Of a DNA stretch of 35,091 nucleotides, positions 1 to 31,881 are shown piece after piece (position 1 is the stretch's first letter; the number at the start of each line of letters is the position of its first letter). The notes below the pieces were generated by a model. It ran no database searches. It was not told where the DNA came from and worked only from the letters and a program-made list of their open reading frames with translations. The DNA is from a virus (taxonomy: Duplodnaviria; Caudoviricetes). Where the stretch lies: the IMG/VR virus record IMGVR_UViG_3300037423_000781, positions 1-35,091 of that record. One strand, given 5' to 3'. The position numbers and the translations under genes were made by a program.

Positions 1-3000
1 ATGGATCGCTTCGTGATCCAGCACCGCATCCGGGTTCTCGGCGTCGAGCGATACGCTGATCAGCTTGCGGAAGTAGGAGCCGTCGGCGGCGTGCATCTTG
101 CCTTCGACCATGAGGCCGAGGTTCTCGCTGATGCGAAGGCCGATGTCCTTCAGGCCGAGCCGGTCGAGTTCGGCCCGAAGCCGCTTGCCGACGTCCTGCG
201 CTTGGGCGGTAAAGGCGTCGGTTGGCCTGAGTTCTTTGTCGGCAACCTTCAGGCGGATGTTCGGATTATTGGCATCGAAAGCGCCTTGGTTGTTGACGGA
301 TTTGATCTGCGTCGGATCGAAGACCACGAAGCCATATTGGGTGTCCATGCCGTCGAACCCGGCCGCGCGGATGATATCGACGCCCTCGGCTCCCGGAAGT
401 TGGTAGAGCACGTTGTCGCCATTGGCCTTATACGCATGGTCAAAAATGCTGGCGAGTTCGCCTTTCTTGAAGTAGCCGGGATGCTTCTCGTTGGTGGCCT
501 TTTCGATGGCGGCAAGATCGGCTGGCGAGATGATGCCGCGCGCGGGGAACAGCTTCTTCGCGCTAAGATATACCGGCATCACATTTGGACCGGCATTGCC
601 CGAAAGCGTTACGCGGTTGACGTTTTCGCCGGTCGCGTAGTCTGATGCCTGCGCTGGATCTCGCGTGAAATAGAATCCTTCGCCGTAGGCGTTGCCGCCG
701 TCGATGCGGCTGAATTCATCGAAGTCTGACCTGGTCCCATGATAAACGACGAGCGGATCGCCGTTCTCATCAACCACCTCGCTGTCGCCGAACCAGCGTT
801 TGAAGGCTGGCGTATCGGTGATGTCCTTCCGTAGCGAGAAAAGTTCATCCTGCCGCTCGGAACGGGCCTGCCTGTCGAAGAGTTCGCCGGCATCCTTCTG
901 CGGCGCCTTGGCGCGCAACGGCTTGTCTGCCTCACGCTGGGCCTGCTGGCCTTGGGAAATCTTCTCTGCCCCGGGAATGACCGACTGGGGTTTGCCCTCG
1001 GCGCCGGCCTCGACGGTCGGCTGCTTCGGATCTGGCTTTTCGGCGGGCTTGCTCTTGGCCGCCGCATCGTTGGCCTTGTCGACCAGATACTTGAGGACAG
1101 TCGCATCGGCTGCGCCATAGGCAATGCGCGTGCCGTTCGGATCTATCAGCCCAACCTCTTCGCCATCCTTGCGGAAGGTGTAGCCATCCGGCAGCTTCTT
1201 GCCCCACTCGGCGACGATGCTCTCGTGCTTGGCGCTATAGTCCGGCGCCGTGTTCGGCTTGCCGCCGGCCGCGCGGTGGATCGCCTCCGCCACGGCATCA
1301 TCCCATTCAAAGCCCTCGTCGAGAATTTTCATCGCACGGCGGGCCACCTCTGGCGTGACCATGCGGCCATTTGCGCGGATCGGGCCTTGAGGCTTCGCCC
1401 CACCATCTGGCGCAGTCGCCGGCATGATCGAATCGATGATGCTGTCGAGCTTGGTCTGAAGCCGATCGGCGCGCTCGGTGTCGCCGGCCGCGCGCATTTC
1501 GTCGATCTTGCGACCGAGACGAATGGCAATGTCTCTATTGGCAGGCTGGATCGCGTCGAAGGCCGCACGGCCCTCTGCGTTGAAGCCTTGGAGGAAGCTG
1601 GGCGCTACTTCGCCTTTCGGCCCGCTTCCATCCGGTTCAGCGCTTCCAGATTGCTCGCGCTGCGGCGCAGCCTCTCGCGCTGATCCTTCGACAGACCCTT
1701 GCCGATCACGGCCCTGATCCGATGGTTTTTCGCCAGTTGCGACCGCTGGCCCTGCGTCAAATGGGATTTCTTCGTCAAGAGCCTGTTCTCCCTGCCCATT
1801 CATATCTTCCGTCTCATGCTCGATTGCAAGAGACTCGCGCTCGAGCACGTCGACAATGGCCTCGTCCGCCGCCATGCCGCTCGCCATCCGGTCGAGAATT
1901 TCGGAGGTCAGGCTTTCGGTGAGTTGCAGCCCGTGCACCTTCGCCAGGGCCTCGATCTCCTGCTGCTGGCGATCGACCTCTTGCGGCGCCGCGCCCGTGC
2001 CCTGCTCTCCGGCGACATACTGGCGGTTGCCGCGGCGCGTCTCGGCGATCAGATCCAGAAGATCGGCAACCGTCGATTTCTCGGTTGCGGTGGCCCGGTC
2101 GCCGTAGAGATGGTCGAAATAGCCCATCTCGGCCGCGGCCTCTCGGGCGGTGTCGAGCGGCACGCCCTTCTCGCGCATCAGCTTGCCGACGCCAGGAACG
2201 AAGGTCTTGTGCGCATCGATCGCGCGCAGCTCGCCCTTGAAATCCTGTACGCCGCCCTGCTGGGCGAGGAACTGGATGATGTCGCGCGGGCCTTTCTGGA
2301 TGGGCGCATTGCGCTGCCTGACGTCGACCGGCGCCGGCGCGGAAGGTGGTTGACCTGGGACGGCGGTTTCGGGAACCTGGTTTACCGAAGGCGATGTCGG
2401 GCCGGTATAGGAAAGCGGCTGCGTGGTGTCGCCGTTCTTCAGCCACGACTTGAAGCCGAACATCGGCATCTCGGTCACGGCGCCGATCCTCTGTGCGCCC
2501 TTGCCGTCGCTGAACGCCTGCTCGTAGGCCTGCACCGCCGCTTCGCGCGACGGGAAGTCCATCATCACCTTGTGCTCGTCGAACGCCTTGGTGCCGGCGT
2601 CGATCTGGTCGATGACATAGACCTTGTCGCTGTGATGATCGCCGAGATAGGTGTCGACCTGGTCGCCATCGGCGCCACTGGTACGGCGGATGTAGCCGTA
2701 GTGGGCCGGCATGGTGACTTCCCAGGGCTCGGCCGCGCCTGGCTTGGAGCGGCGCGTGCCGCCCTTCTCGTTCTCGATCGAGACATCGAGCCCGTGCACC
2801 TGGACTTTGCGCTTGGCGTAGTTTCCTGCCTCGGCCTGACCCGGCGTCGGTTCCGGGTTGGTCTGCCCTGTGGTGAGGAAGGCATGATCGGGGAGGAGCG
2901 CGGATGCCGGATTTGCACGCGGCATGACACGAAGGCGCGCGGCTTCGTCTGGTTTCAGTTCGAAATTGAACGTGAAGCCCTGCTTGACGCCTTGCTCTGG

Positions 3001-4917
3001 GATATCGGCATTGTTGATGCGTGGGTCATTCGCAGGGATGTCGAGATAATGCAGCGGGAGATCGCTCCGATAGTCGGAAGCATATTTCTGGTTGGTGCTC
3101 ACCCAGCGACCAGAGTCACCTTCGCCAACTGATCCGCTGTGATAGACCCTGACCATTCCTGGCTGCACGGGAGGCGCAGGCGCCGCTTCCGCTACAGCCG
3201 GACCGGCGACAGGCTCCGCGCTTGCTGGCGGGGCTGCTGGATGGCCAAGCGGCGGGATTTCGGCCGCTGGCTCGGTGGCCGCCTGCTTCTTGCCGGCGCC
3301 GAGCGCCTCGTCGAAGATCTTCTTGCCATCGTCGATGAGATCATTGGGCAGCGGCGACGCCCGGTCTTCCGGGGTCAGGCGCGGACTGTTCGGCCGGTCC
3401 TTCTCGACATCGATGGTGGCCGCAGGCGGGGGAGGAGGTCCGCCTGCGGCCGTATCTGCGGACGGGGGAGGAGGTCCACCCGCAGATTCCTGCCCGAAGA
3501 GCGTGTCGGCCGATGCCGCGCCCTGCGGGATACCCTGTTCGGCAATCGGTGGCGCCGCTTCATGCGCCTGGTGACCGGCAGCGGGAGATGCGCCCGCGCT
3601 CATGGTTCCGCCGGCGAGCGCGCCACCAATGGCGTTGTCGATGACCGATACGGCTTGCTGGGCCAGCGTCTTGTCGCCGCCCGCCACGTCGATCGCCGCT
3701 TCCTGGATGACCTGTTGCACACCTTCGGTAGCACCTTCCGTCAGCGCACCGGTGACGACGCGCTGCATCAGGCGCTTGACGATGTTCTGCTTCAGGCCCG
3801 TGGCGTTGAGCCCGACCACCCCTTCCAGCGACGCCGCATCGAGCGCCGCCATGGGTATAGCCGCCTCGGCCGCGATGCTGGCGACCTGCTTTCGGGTGAT
3901 CTTGCCGTCCGCGATTGCCTTCTTCACGCCTTCGTTTTCAAGAAGGGCGCCGTAGGTGTCGCCAAGGTTCTGGACGTAGGACGGGCCGGCGGCGCTGGCG
4001 ATGAAGCCGAGCGGGCTCTTTGTGACTGCCGCGCCAGCCACGCCGGCGGCAAGGCTCGGTGCCGATGTTCCGGCACCTGAGCCGATCAGATAGCCGGCAT
4101 AGTCCGCCGCATCGCTGATCATGTTGGACAGGGAGTCCGTCCTGATCGAGGTGACGCTCGGCACGTTCGGCTGGCGCGTCTCCGCGCCCTGCGCGCCCCA
4201 TGCCTTGACCTGATCGGCGAGATTGCGAAGCGTTTGCGGGGTTTCTTCCATGGGGCGGATCTTGCCGCCCGGTTCGGTGGGGACCATGCGGCCGACGATA
4301 TCGCCGGCATGCGCCGCGCCGCTCGGTTCGCTCAGTTCGGCAATCGCCTCCATGGCGTTGCCGACCATCTGCGGATTCTGGTCGACGAGACCGCTGATGA
4401 AGCCCTTCTTGATCTGGTCGATGAAGCCGCCGCCGCTGGCCGGGGCAGAGCCGCCACCCATGAACTCGTCGTCGCTCATCAGGTCGGAAGCGGGTTTTCC
4501 AGAATAGAAATCCGCCTGCGCGCCGTGCAGCGCCTGCGCATAGGCAGTTGCATCGTCCGGGTTGTCGAACTTGCCGAGGTGCTGGCCGGTCTTGTGATAG
4601 AGGTCGATTGCCGCCTTGTCGTCGAGAAGCTTGCCATCCGGCGAGACAGTCGGGATCAGGATTTCCTTGCCATCTTCCTCGAATGACATCGAACGCACGG
4701 TGCTGACCGAGCCGTCTTCATTCTTGACCACAGGGCGCTTGGCGAGATCGACATTGCCAGGTTCGAGGAGACCCTTGAAATCGCCGGTCGGGGCGGCAGA
4801 GCGCTCGGCTGGCTTGGCTGGCGCTGTCGCGCCGCCCATGAACTGATCATCGTTCAGCAGCGTGCTGCCGCCACTCGCCGGCTCGCCGAGAAACTCATCG
4901 TCGGAAAGCAGGTTCAC
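1..4917 (-). CDS. Large polyvalent internal virion/ejection protein (3'-truncated by window edge, >1639 aa)
   Basis: Hand translation from GTG at 4917 (GTGA overlap with upstream stop) has no stop down to base 1. It begins MNLLSDDEFLG. It contains GNVDLAKRPVVKNEDGSVSTVRSMSF (about 4505-4758), a RVYHSG..WVSTN..YA ART-like module (about 2920-3156), an InPase domain (AGNY..SIENEKG..HYGYIRRTSGADGDQVD..FDEHKVM, about 2420-2850), an ART-PolyVal domain (FKRWFGDS..VVYHGT..GFYFT..VMPVYL..GFDG..VVFDPTQIKS, about 250-820) and HEAIH at 1-15. Confidence 0.92.
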   Translation of the reverse strand, partial: MNLLSDDEFLGEPASGGSTLLNDDQFMGGATAPAKPAERSAAPTGDFKGLLEPGNVDLAKRPVVKNEDGSVSTVRSMSFEEDGKEILIPTVSPDGKLLDDKAAIDLYHKTGQHLGKFDNPDDATAYAQALHGAQADFYSGKPASDLMSDDEFMGGGSAPASGGGFIDQIKKGFISGLVDQNPQMVGNAMEAIAELSEPSGAAHAGDIVGRMVPTEPGGKIRPMEETPQTLRNLADQVKAWGAQGAETRQPNVPSVTSIRTDSLSNMISDAADYAGYLIGSGAGTSAPSLAAGVAGAAVTKSPLGFIASAAGPSYVQNLGDTYGALLENEGVKKAIADGKITRKQVASIAAEAAIPMAALDAASLEGVVGLNATGLKQNIVKRLMQRVVTGALTEGATEGVQQVIQEAAIDVAGGDKTLAQQAVSVIDNAIGGALAGGTMSAGASPAAGHQAHEAAPPIAEQGIPQGAASADTLFGQESAGGPPPPSADTAAGGPPPPPAATIDVEKDRPNSPRLTPEDRASPLPNDLIDDGKKIFDEALGAGKKQAATEPAAEIPPLGHPAAPPASAEPVAGPAVAEAAPAPPVQPGMVRVYHSGSVGEGDSGRWVSTNQKYASDYRSDLPLHYLDIPANDPRINNADIPEQGVKQGFTFNFELKPDEAARLRVMPRANPASALLPDHAFLTTGQTNPEPTPGQAEAGNYAKRKVQVHGLDVSIENEKGGTRRSKPGAAEPWEVTMPAHYGYIRRTSGADGDQVDTYLGDHHSDKVYVIDQIDAGTKAFDEHKVMMDFPSREAAVQAYEQAFSDGKGAQRIGAVTEMPMFGFKSWLKNGDTTQPLSYTGPTSPSVNQVPETAVPGQPPSAPAPVDVRQRNAPIQKGPRDIIQFLAQQGGVQDFKGELRAIDAHKTFVPGVGKLMREKGVPLDTAREAAAEMGYFDHLYGDRATATEKSTVADLLDLIAETRRGNRQYVAGEQGTGAAPQEVDRQQQEIEALAKVHGLQLTESLTSEILDRMASGMAADEAIVDVLERESLAIEHETEDMNGQGEQALDEEIPFDAGPAVATGEKPSDQGRDRQGSVEGSAREAAPQREQSGSAEPDGSGPKGEVAPSFLQGFNAEGRAAFDAIQPANRDIAIRLGRKIDEMRAAGDTERADRLQTKLDSIIDSIMPATAPDGGAKPQGPIRANGRMVTPEVARRAMKILDEGFEWDDAVAEAIHRAAGGKPNTAPDYSAKHESIVAEWGKKLPDGYTFRKDGEEVGLIDPNGTRIAYGAADATVLKYLVDKANDAAAKSKPAEKPDPKQPTVEAGAEGKPQSVIPGAEKISQGQQAQREADKPLRAKAPQKDAGELFDRQARSERQDELFSLRKDITDTPAFKRWFGDSEVVDENGDPLVVYHGTRSDFDEFSRIDGGNAYGEGFYFTRDPAQASDYATGENVNRVTLSGNAGPNVMPVYLSAKKLFPARGIISPADLAAIEKATNEKHPGYFKKGELASIFDHAYKANGDNVLYQLPGAEGVDIIRAAGFDGMDTQYGFVVFDPTQIKSVNNQGAFDANNPNIRLKVADKELRPTDAFTAQAQDVGKRLRAELDRLGLKDIGLRISENLGLMVEGKMHAADGSYFRKLISVSLDAENPDAVLDHEAIH
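1605..1799 (-). CDS. Candidate 64-aa basic protein nested out of frame inside the polyvalent gene
   Basis: ATG to TAG. By hand count 53 of 64 codons end in G/C, versus about 29 of 65 in the host frame over the same bases, where the host protein is a low-complexity linker. Confidence 0.55.
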   Translation of the reverse strand: MGRENRLLTKKSHLTQGQRSQLAKNHRIRAVIGKGLSKDQRERLRRSASNLEALNRMEAGRKAK

Positions 4918-5705
4918 TGGATGAGTTCCCAGCCCTTGCCAGTCCATTTCGCGATCTTGCCGTTCGGAGCCTTGTAGATCTTGCCGATGACGCGCTTGGC
5001 CGGATCGGCAGGGATCACATCACCCGGGCCTTCGACACCGCCTGGCTTGACTCCGGCCGCGCCGGTGTCGCCCGGCTTGGCGCTGCTGTCGGCCGGCTCC
5101 GTATCGAGATAGGTCAGCGTCTTGTCGGTCGCTTCCTGCGCCTGCTTTTGCAGTTCTACCGGATCGGGCGTGCCCATCGCGCCCTTGGTCAGGGCATCCA
5201 TCCATGCCTTGTAGATCGAGGCGCGCGACTTGTCGGGATCGGCGCGGGCCGCGCGCACCATCTTCCAGGCTTCCGCCGGGTTTGTCGCGACGCCCTGCTG
5301 GATCAGCCATTCGGCGGTCGACACCTCGGCCGGTTTGTCCGCCGCCTTGCCGGTCACCATCACCTTGACGGGGTTGCCCTTGTCGTCGACGAGCGGCTTT
5401 GCCGTCGAACCGGTGCGCGAGTAGCTGTTGCCCTTGTCGTCGGTGATGAGGTCGCCGGACGCATCGCGTGCCTTCTGGGCCTCGTCGCTGCGGGCTGCGA
5501 GGGCCTTGTCGGTCTGACCGGCCTCGAAGTTGCGGCCGATCTCGGCCTCCTTCGAACGGAAATCACGCTCGTCGGCAGCGCGGCGGTCCTGCCGTTGCGC
5601 CTCGAGCTCCTGCAGGCGCGCCTCACGCTCAGCCTTGATCTCGTCGAGCTTGGCGTCGCTCCATCCCGACATCGCGCCGCCAAGGATCATGGCAAATCCG
5701 GCCAT
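4914..5705 (-). CDS. Internal virion/ejection protein
   Basis: 263 aa, Gly-rich N-terminus followed by charged coiled coil. Coupled to both neighbours and directly upstream of the giant protein. Confidence 0.75.
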   Translation of the reverse strand: MAGFAMILGGAMSGWSDAKLDEIKAEREARLQELEAQRQDRRAADERDFRSKEAEIGRNFEAGQTDKALAARSDEAQKARDASGDLITDDKGNSYSRTGSTAKPLVDDKGNPVKVMVTGKAADKPAEVSTAEWLIQQGVATNPAEAWKMVRAARADPDKSRASIYKAWMDALTKGAMGTPDPVELQKQAQEATDKTLTYLDTEPADSSAKPGDTGAAGVKPGGVEGPGDVIPADPAKRVIGKIYKAPNGKIAKWTGKGWELIQ

Positions 5706-9388: not shown

Positions 9389-9879
9389 GTTTGTGTCCTT
9401 TCAAATTCCATCCTGAAGATCGATCCATAGCGCTTCATGCCAAGCCTCTGAAGAAGCTTGCCTGCACGTTCTGGATCGCCGATTACCGCTGTCACGCCGC
9501 ATTTGATCTCGACGCAGAACGGCGAACGCTTCGCCCACTGGACCATGCCAAGAAGCAAACGTCCTGCATCGCTCGGCTGGGCGAACCCGTTGGTCGCGAA
9601 GATCACGTCGGTAGCCATTAGCTTATCGCCAATCGAATACACGCGCGCCATCGTGGCCACCATCAGGCCGCAAATCTGACCAGCGTGCTCTACCACTTCT
9701 GCCCAGCATGCGTTGTCTGTCTTATGTCCATGCCGATGGATGGCCATGAGGAGAAGTTTCTTGGTGTGGACGACATCGACGTTGACCAAGCCGCCGCCGT
9801 AGTGTGAGCACGCGTGGCACTCGATGAGGAAGTTCACGATCGCCGGGATATCGGTGGCTTTGGCTGGGCGTACAGTCAT
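9385..9879 (-). CDS. GNAT-fold protein of the ejection module (T7 gp13-like position)
   Basis: MTVRPAKATDIPAI start, AGRLLLGMVQWAK and LLQRLGM GNAT-like motifs. ATG 9879 overlaps the HNH stop (ATGA). Confidence 0.78.
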   Translation of the reverse strand: MTVRPAKATDIPAIVNFLIECHACSHYGGGLVNVDVVHTKKLLLMAIHRHGHKTDNACWAEVVEHAGQICGLMVATMARVYSIGDKLMATDVIFATNGFAQPSDAGRLLLGMVQWAKRSPFCVEIKCGVTAVIGDPERAGKLLQRLGMKRYGSIFRMEFERTQT

Positions 9880-10481
9880 GCCACCCATCCCCACGCCTGC
9901 CGTTTTTGGATTCTCGATATCTGGCTTTTTGTCACGTTGAACCGCACTGCAGTATGCTTCTGATGCTGAACACCGCGAAGCGCCCTGATCTCACGGATGT
10001 CGCTTTCAGTTAGCTTGGAATTCCATTGGGACGTTCCGCGAATGCGAGTACCGTGGATCAATTGGTCTGCCTTGTTGCCTGCTGATGTCTTCCACGACAG
10101 ATGACGCTTGGCGACGCAGCCTTGATGTCCGCGACCGCAGGAGTGGGCAGCCTCATGCTCAGATGTTGGCGCCAGTCCATGCAACTCCTCACAGACGAGA
10201 CGATGGACGTACCGATTGGCTCCGCTTTCATCATGAATGATGCCATAGCCAAGACCTGCCTTGCCGTACGGCCAGATCAGGCAGTCGATGCCGTCGTATG
10301 TAAGTACGACCTCGCGGTAGAACCGTTGGGCCTCGCCCGGCGCTGTTGAGCCGCATGACGGATCGCCATGCCGGCGCCACCGGCTGTAGTGCGCATTGCA
10401 CCAGCCATGCCCAAACACGGGCTTGCCGCAGCCTTCAACAGAGCATATACGTGCTGGCTTCAAGTATATCTCCGTCACCAA
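9876..10481 (-). CDS. Free-standing HNH (homing-type) endonuclease
   Basis: CSVEGC..GWCNAHY zinc motif, CLIWP, VHRLVCEELHG..AAHSCG..CV..HLSW.T..N, C-terminal HTH-like segment. More AT-rich codons than flanking genes. Confidence 0.9.
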   Translation of the reverse strand: MVTEIYLKPARICSVEGCGKPVFGHGWCNAHYSRWRRHGDPSCGSTAPGEAQRFYREVVLTYDGIDCLIWPYGKAGLGYGIIHDESGANRYVHRLVCEELHGLAPTSEHEAAHSCGRGHQGCVAKRHLSWKTSAGNKADQLIHGTRIRGTSQWNSKLTESDIREIRALRGVQHQKHTAVRFNVTKSQISRIQKRQAWGWVA

Positions 10482-31296: not shown

Positions 31297-31881
31297 CTAC
31301 ACCGCTCCGACATTGTGGCCGTGCTGCATGATCAGGCCAGCAGGACGGCACAGATACTGGATTGCGCTTTGCATCAACTCTTGGCTGTCTCTGAAGCAGC
31401 CAAGGCCCATGTTGCAGTGGTGGCAAAGCAGACCGCGAATTTCGCCGGTCTCATGGTCGTGGTCGATGAACAAATGCTTTGCGCGCGGGCCTTGCTGTGG
31501 CTTTCGACACACCTCGCATCGCCCGTCGCTTCTTGCGAGTAGAGCCTGGTACGTCTCAAGCGAAATGCCGTAGTTATCGAGTAGCTTCTTGACTCGAATG
31601 GCTTCGCGGTTCTTGGCGCGCCACGCTTTCCCCTTTTCGGAGTGGGCCTTACGGACAGCAGGATCCTCGGCATACCGCTGGCGTTTGTAGACTCTCTGCG
31701 CGGCCTGAAGTTTGTCTTTGTTCCGCGCCTTGTAGCGCCGAACTATTTCGCGCCGCCTCTCTGGATTCTTGGCAGCCCACTCCTTGTCAGCAGCGTTCTT
31801 GCGCGCTTTGTTATCGTTGTACCATTGCTTGCGCCGCTCGCGACCGCGCGCCTTCGATGCTTCTGAACGCACGTAGGCCAT
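31297..31881 (-). CDS. Endonuclease VII-family nuclease (probable free-standing homing endonuclease)
   Basis: Basic helical N-terminus, YGISLETY..CEVC..IDHDHETGEIRGLLCHHCNMGLG..AIQYL. Confidence 0.9.
   Translation of the reverse strand: MAYVRSEASKARGRERRKQWYNDNKARKNAADKEWAAKNPERRREIVRRYKARNKDKLQAAQRVYKRQRYAEDPAVRKAHSEKGKAWRAKNREAIRVKKLLDNYGISLETYQALLARSDGRCEVCRKPQQGPRAKHLFIDHDHETGEIRGLLCHHCNMGLGCFRDSQELMQSAIQYLCRPAGLIMQHGHNVGAV

What the first reader, a model, noticed from the sequence alone, without database searches (positions are those of the whole stretch)
1605..1799. Codon-optimised 64-aa gene nested out of frame in the giant protein's linker
Seen: over exactly this interval the G/C third-position bias moves from the host frame (about 29/65) to an alternative frame (53/64). 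That frame runs ATG to TAG and encodes a basic helical peptide with an internal echo (LTQGQR/LSKDQR), while the host frame becomes linker-like. Inference: a gene within a gene, possibly captured and read through. It could be an inhibitor or chaperone for the injected enzymatic domains. The SD (GGAAG) is weak.
Basis: partly seen in the sequence, partly recalled or inferred. Interest (0 to 1): 0.72.

Follow-up and report, generated by a model that had tools for sequence, protein, structure and literature searches.

The report
Nested gene grips its host protein
A small gene hidden in a shifted reading frame inside a giant phage virion-protein gene is conserved under selection in many related phages, and its two-helix product is predicted to bind the stretch of the giant protein encoded just before it, likely as a built-in chaperone or subunit.

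Summary
An open frame there is itself expected by chance (87%). Relatives show a real gene: 23 of 50 distinct related loci carry a homologous ~55-aa +1-frame peptide in the same slot; 20 of 23 have a start plus Shine-Dalgarno there, against 3% of background windows; dN/dS is 0.32 in the nested frame and 1.63 in the host frame, mirroring the flank. The product is a predicted helical hairpin. It is predicted to bind the host helix encoded just upstream (score 0.63, best control 0.00). An ART/InPase-inhibitor role is not supported: many carriers lack those domains. Free-standing homologues exist in Mesorhizobium islands. Expression is untested. This scan found +1 genes nested in giant virion genes before, on other DNA; I found no paper.

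The parts
1..4947 (-). Host gene: phage large polyvalent / internal virion protein, 1649 aa, cut by the contig end; InPase at residues 703-837, ART-PolyVal at 1393-1554
   Evidence: relatives are 2900-4700 aa
1605..1778 (-). Nested +1-frame gene, most likely extent (TTG to TAG, 57 aa, net charge +12, predicted helical hairpin H9-25 and H31-56)
1779..1799 (-).
1788..1793 (-). Shine-Dalgarno-like AGGGAG, 9 nt before TTG 1778
   Evidence: sequence
1759..1767 (-). Host-frame Ile-Pro-Phe motif (residues 1061-1063), dual-coding with the nested N-terminus; LPGW/PPGW in hosts without the nested gene
1798..1866 (-). Host helix (residues 1028-1050; family pattern DALERAxxEDY) predicted to be gripped by the nested hairpin; the best contacts (1031-1043) lie outside the dual-coding stretch
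1744..2292 (-). Unnamed host domain with the AREAAAEAGY motif that precedes the nested gene in the phage carriers

Best explanation
A conserved 57-codon gene sits in the +1 frame inside the linker of a phage giant virion-protein gene, is likely translated from its own ribosome-binding site on the same late mRNA, and its helical-hairpin product is predicted to bind the host protein's helix encoded immediately upstream, likely acting as a dedicated chaperone or small subunit. Shown: the reading frame, its conservation, the switch of purifying selection to the +1 frame, and start/SD signals across the family. Predicted: the hairpin fold and the complex, in which the conserved I/L-A-x-N-L-x-V-L stripe of helix 2 and residues 12, 15, 19 of helix 1 pack on host residues 1031-1043. 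Inferred: translation from the host mRNA, and a role in keeping the amphipathic host helix covered while the ejection protein is made, packaged or ejected. The host frame pays for the overlap with a disordered acidic, Gly-rich linker that is largely the shadow of the nested gene.
For: Host GC3 dip z = -5.8, 0 of 2000 simulations. In two close relatives, differences in 1605-1760 fall 13/5/4 on host codon positions 1/2/3, against 3/2/15 in the listed flank differences (Fisher p = 5e-4); TAG is kept in the one relative that covers it. Eight pooled pairs of relatives: core dN/dS 0.32 nested and 1.63 host; flank 0.22 host and 1.58 in +1. Leave-one-out profile: window peptide z = 7.3, 0 of 300 shuffles; same DNA in host frame z = 1.7, 22 of 300. 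Start plus SD in a fixed window before the conserved Ala in 20 of 23 loci against 48 of 1610 background windows; starts are ATG 19, TTG 2, GTG 2 with SD spacing 6-9 nt in 22 of 23. Free-standing homologues up to 62% identical over 47 aa. AF2 hairpin, pLDDT 85.6. Complex score 0.63, best of 3 controls 0.00; the mark was reached by 116 of 157 solved complexes and 2 of 215 mismatched pairs (counts hold only roughly, own alignments); runs share at least 78% of contacts, partner pLDDT 78. The contact residues are conserved on both sides, and no like solved structure was found by sequence.
Against: No expression data. The start is not fixed: one close relative has lost TTG 1778 and its GGGAG and has a new ATG one codon on with a weaker AAGGG. 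27 of 50 related loci have no detectable nested copy; six such hosts aligned keep a similar helix, and two near-complete proviruses among them have no copy anywhere, so the partner is dispensable or replaced. The closest relatives of the window peptide are free-standing genes in chromosomal islands with no virion gene detected nearby, which suggests the hairpin can act without this host domain. The complex is one prediction with three controls, and amphipathic helices pair easily.
Confidence: 0.6

Rival explanations
1. The nested gene is real but is a passenger: a small basic protein with its own target (nucleic acid or a bacterial protein) that only uses the linker as a safe, late-expressed slot.
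For: Free-standing homologues in islands with resolvase (4 of 6 regions) and XRE HTH genes (3 of 6), no virion genes detected; net charge mostly positive, up to +16; many hosts lack it.
Against: Complex prediction passed with the adjacent host helix; the conserved face is hydrophobic, and net charge is only 0 to +4 in 10 of 22 nested members.
Confidence: 0.25
2. The +1 frame is reached by a programmed frameshift near the Ile-Pro-Phe motif, giving a shortened virion protein that ends in the hairpin, which then folds back on the helix in cis.
For: The slot follows a conserved IPF motif; one database protein (P0037) runs from the host domain into a weakly matching hairpin (E 0.005); the predicted partner helix is adjacent.
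Against: Starts with SD at proper spacing in 20 of 23 loci; in L013 and L015 a +1 stop lies between IPFF and the ATG; L020 and L041 have no IPF.
Confidence: 0.06
3. The peptide is an inhibitor of the host protein's ART or InPase domain.
For: The window's host and some carriers (L013, L020, L035) have these domains.
Against: Six carrier host ORFs have no Pfam domain, five of them closed 660-800 aa ORFs; the predicted site is another helix.
Confidence: 0.04
4. The frame is an untranslated shadow of a low-complexity linker.
For: An open +1 frame is expected here (87%); the ATG is not conserved.
Against: and free-standing homologues.
Confidence: 0.04

Closest known systems
Embedded spanin genes Rz1 within Rz (phage lambda)
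   Same: A small gene embedded in another gene whose product forms a complex with the host gene's product (PMC5295617, PMC6139136: search listing and start of abstracts, for the complex; the +1 embedding is recalled).
   Different: No lipoprotein or membrane features, not in a lysis cassette; the host is a 660 to over 3000 aa virion protein; here the complex is only predicted.
Large polyvalent proteins of phages (Iyer et al. 2017, PMC5512222)
   Same: The host gene is one: InPase and ART-PolyVal domains; the paper says InPase-bearing ones are likely packaged and injected (passages).
   Different: The word search of its main text found no nested or overlapping gene; its supplements were not read.
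Gene E nested in gene D of phiX174
   Same: Internal overlap in a phage (PMC8227390, passages).
   Different: Here the nested frame is the constrained, folded one and the host frame is the disordered one, and free-standing homologues exist.
DUF6381 (PF19908) and similar small helical-hairpin proteins
   Same: Weak similarity: one nested member E 0.0037, one short free-standing homologue E 1.6e-5, 25 bits.
   Different: Both are below the curated cut-off of 26.6 bits; the window peptide has no match.

Membership tests
Internally overlapping (nested) protein-coding gene | Complete ORF inside an intact host ORF in another frame | tested here: met
Internally overlapping (nested) protein-coding gene | Purifying selection on the nested frame | tested here: met
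Internally overlapping (nested) protein-coding gene | Own translation start signals | tested here: met
   family level 20 of 23 against 48 of 1610; the exact start in the window is uncertain
Internally overlapping (nested) protein-coding gene | Protein is made | not testable with these tools
   only DNA contigs were available
Embedded two-component spanin (Rz/Rz1) | Nested product is an outer-membrane lipoprotein (needs a Cys lipobox); host is an inner-membrane spanin | tested here: not met
   the peptide has no Cys or signal-like stretch; host is a polyvalent protein
Embedded two-component spanin (Rz/Rz1) | Nested product binds the host gene's product | tested here: inconclusive
   predicted only: 0.63 against best control 0.00
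Phage large polyvalent protein (host gene) | Several characteristic domains in one giant ORF in the virion module | tested here: met
   InPase E 2e-44, ART-PolyVal E 8e-24; capsid, portal and terminase upstream
DUF6381 (PF19908) | Score above the Pfam gathering cut-off | tested here: not met
Any solved helical-hairpin family | Specific structural match | tested here: inconclusive
   best Foldseek E 0.44 (viral) and 2.1 (PDB); best VIA Z 7.7, rmsd 2.9, 57 aligned, generic

The most novel reading that the evidence does not exclude
Giant podophage ejection-protein genes carry their own chaperone gene inside them: the linker right after a sticky helix is a +1-frame gene whose product caps that helix, so client and chaperone cannot be separated by the domain shuffling these proteins undergo, and the many other linker-nested genes may each serve the domain next to them.
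Probability: 0.4. Interest if true: 0.85.

Novelty: new variant of a known kind. Interest (0 to 1): 0.68.

Why it matters
Gene callers suppress such ORFs, so a whole family of small phage proteins is missing from annotation: the database search with the family profile returned only 7 proteins, 5 of them on contigs of about 1 kb or less. It shows that a 'disordered linker' of a polyvalent protein can be the shadow of a folded gene. If the predicted binding holds, it gives a reason for the nesting (an Rz/Rz1-like client and partner pair locked in one gene) and a direct handle on how giant ejection proteins are kept foldable and packaged. Prophage carriers in cultured Mesorhizobium and Aquamicrobium strains make it testable.

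Tried and rejected
Single-sequence searches with the peptide found nothing; nor did single-sequence locus scans with the host region or plasmids; phages gave one distant record whose +1 peptide the final profile does not detect (leave-one-out z 3.0). No RNA holder listed: no evidence either way. No significant Pfam, PHROG or NCBIfam family for nested peptides; PDB sequence hits are designed helical proteins; fold searches give only generic hairpins; ESM Atlas gave no usable hit. The idea that the free-standing 150-aa proteins carry a fused copy of the host helix was tested and rejected (shuffle P 0.18-0.48 in 6 of 6). A second hairpin repeat in them is seen by eye and in a low-confidence model but is not significant (E 0.22). 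The idea that the IPF motif is only a shadow of the nested gene was not adopted: hosts without the gene keep LPGW/PPGW there and changes just upstream are host-synonymous. No sigma-70 promoter or terminator in 1300-2400. The tree (61 columns, long branches) cannot give the direction of transfer. Literature: searches listed no report of genes nested in polyvalent or ejection-protein genes; the library lacks most subscription papers, and supplements of PMC5512222 were not read.

Full report
Setting. The window is a whole 35-kb phage contig with terminase, portal, capsid and tail-like genes on the minus strand. The last gene, 4947..1, is a large polyvalent protein cut by the contig end, with InPase (703-837) and ART-PolyVal (1393-1554) domains. 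Its closest named relative is from Mesorhizobium sp. B2-1-2, 81% identical over the region.

Observation. The ORF is 1799..1605 on the minus strand, in the +1 frame of the host. Host GC3 is 29/65 where 48.9 is expected from amino-acid-conditioned codon usage (z = -5.8); it is the minimum of the gene and 0 of 2000 synonymous resamplings reached it. The open frame alone means little: it is open in 87% of resamplings, and about 5 such ATG ORFs are expected.

Close relatives. Contigs of two public runs cover the stretch. In 1605-1760 their differences fall 13/5/4 on host positions 1/2/3; the 20 flank differences listed for one of them (a subset, 108 rows were not shown) fall 3/2/15 (p = 5e-4). Host position 1 is nested position 3, so selection moves to the +1 frame. 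The ATG at 1799 is AGG in both. TTG 1778 has AGGGAG 9 nt upstream and is kept in one relative; the other changes it and its SD but gains ATG at the next codon. TTG 1760 is invariant but has no GGAG/GAGG/AGGA before it (sequence). I take 1778 as the likeliest start.

The family. A profile of the upstream host domain fetched 63 loci; with one phage record these are 50 distinct loci. 23 carry a related +1 peptide about 110-170 codons after the AREAAAE motif. This count is partly circular: 22 of the 23 were picked by their GC3 dip and built the profile. Independent checks: leave-one-out profiles over 25 sequences give mean z 21.9 for the nested frame and 9.4 for the host frame, and for the window 7.3 (0 of 300 shuffles) against 1.7 (22 of 300). 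In 8 pooled pairs (a ninth left out because it reuses L004; the first 10 codons skipped in most) dN/dS is 0.32 nested and 1.63 host in the core, and 0.22 host and 1.58 in +1 in the flank; values above 1 are the mirror effect, not positive selection. A start with SD lies in a fixed window before the conserved Ala in 20 of 23 rows against 48 of 1610 overlapping background windows. In L013 and L015 a stop precedes the ATG, downstream of IPFF, which excludes a frameshift at that motif there.

Hosts. Carriers include giant InPase-bearing proteins (L013, L020, L035) and 660-800 aa proteins with no Pfam domain, some matching phrog_342, internal virion protein. So the peptide follows the unnamed upstream domain, not the enzymes. 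Six short relatives aligned without the gene have LPGW/PPGW in place of IPFF and a shorter acidic stretch.

Free-standing homologues. The profile matched 9 of 401 genomes of the order and 11 of 202 of the genus of the L031 genome. Inspection showed further nested copies, seven free-standing 140-150 aa genes whose first 50 residues are the hairpin, and seven weak matches in short free ORFs. The window peptide is closest to the free-standing group (62% over 47 aa with L080; 51% over 45 aa with L081), in a supported clade with nested L020 (97/96). Their neighbours are resolvases (4 of 6 regions), XRE HTH genes (3 of 6) and an integrase. Exchange between nested and free states has happened; the direction is unresolved.

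Structure and partner. AF2 with the 23-row alignment gives a two-helix hairpin, pLDDT 85.6; fold searches are generic. Helix 2 has more conserved hydrophobic positions (37, 40, 41, 44, 46, 47, 48, 50) than a hairpin needs. The one complex job paired the host domain (residues 886-1068) with the peptide: score 0.63 (0.63, 0.70, 0.62), best of 3 controls 0.00; the mark was reached by 116 of 157 solved complexes and 2 of 215 mismatched pairs, roughly applicable as my own alignments were used; runs agree in at least 78% of contacts; partner pLDDT 78. The best contacts join host 1031-1043 to nested 12, 15, 19, 37, 40, 43, 44, 47. That host helix is upstream of the overlap, so the signal is not forced by shared codons, and positions 1034-1038 are among the most conserved in that half of the domain. 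This supports binding; it does not show it. Against an obligate role: hosts without the gene keep a similar helix, two proviruses rated 92% and 100% complete have no copy, and the free-standing proteins have no significant copy of the helix.

Mechanism. Most likely ribosomes initiate at the nested SD on the late mRNA while others read through in the host frame (inferred). The hairpin would cap the adjacent amphipathic helix of the virion protein, as a chaperone during synthesis and packaging or as a small subunit carried in the head (predicted, inferred). I put the gene's reality at about 0.93 and this partner role at 0.6.

What is known. The logic matches lambda Rz/Rz1 (PMC5295617, PMC6139136; listing and abstract starts; +1 embedding recalled), but it is not a spanin. 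PMC5512222 (passages) describes the host class and has no hit for overlapping genes in its main text. PMC8227390 (passages) covers phiX174 E in D and disorder in overlaps. PMC13299392 (passages) was irrelevant. Seven searches listed no report of this arrangement. This scan has noted +1 genes nested in giant virion genes in at least 16 genomes (unchecked notes); none matched this family by sequence, and none of the eight shown mentions binding to the host protein.

Verdict. A real, unannotated nested gene family with a corrected start, free-standing relatives and a predicted partner site on its own host protein. New variant of a known kind; interest 0.68.

Noticed in passing
L035:782-1327 (+): An HNH-endonuclease-like ORF (by recalled motif; no family scan) lies in the +1 frame while the giant host frame stays open across it for about 180 codons: a possible inserted gene read through as linker.
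   Followed up: partly
L039 near 1345 (+); L020 near 3601 (+); L018 near 1894 (+): Further GC3 dips in host genes with protein-like +1 frames; the L039 one (z = -7.6) lies upstream of the domain and holds an NLEAL-like stretch but is not detected by the family profile.
   Followed up: no
P0037 residues 543-606: A database protein runs from the host domain into a weakly matching hairpin in one frame (E 0.005): frameshift, assembly error or true fusion.
   Followed up: no
L071 (G270:C37:673-819, minus): A family member whose host frame is open only 56 codons up and 71 down but keeps an EEEVPF motif: possibly a nested gene outliving a decayed host gene.
   Followed up: partly
L089, L090, L092, L095: Free-standing homologues often lie near an oppositely oriented 88-aa XRE helix-turn-helix gene and a resolvase.
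   Followed up: partly
   Followed up: no
window 9876-10481 and 31297-31881 (minus): Two free-standing endonuclease genes (HNH-like, Endonuclease_7) in the phage.
   Followed up: no
window about 3030-3300 (minus): A second, weaker GC3 dip in the giant gene (z about -3) with no protein-like shifted frame.
   Followed up: partly
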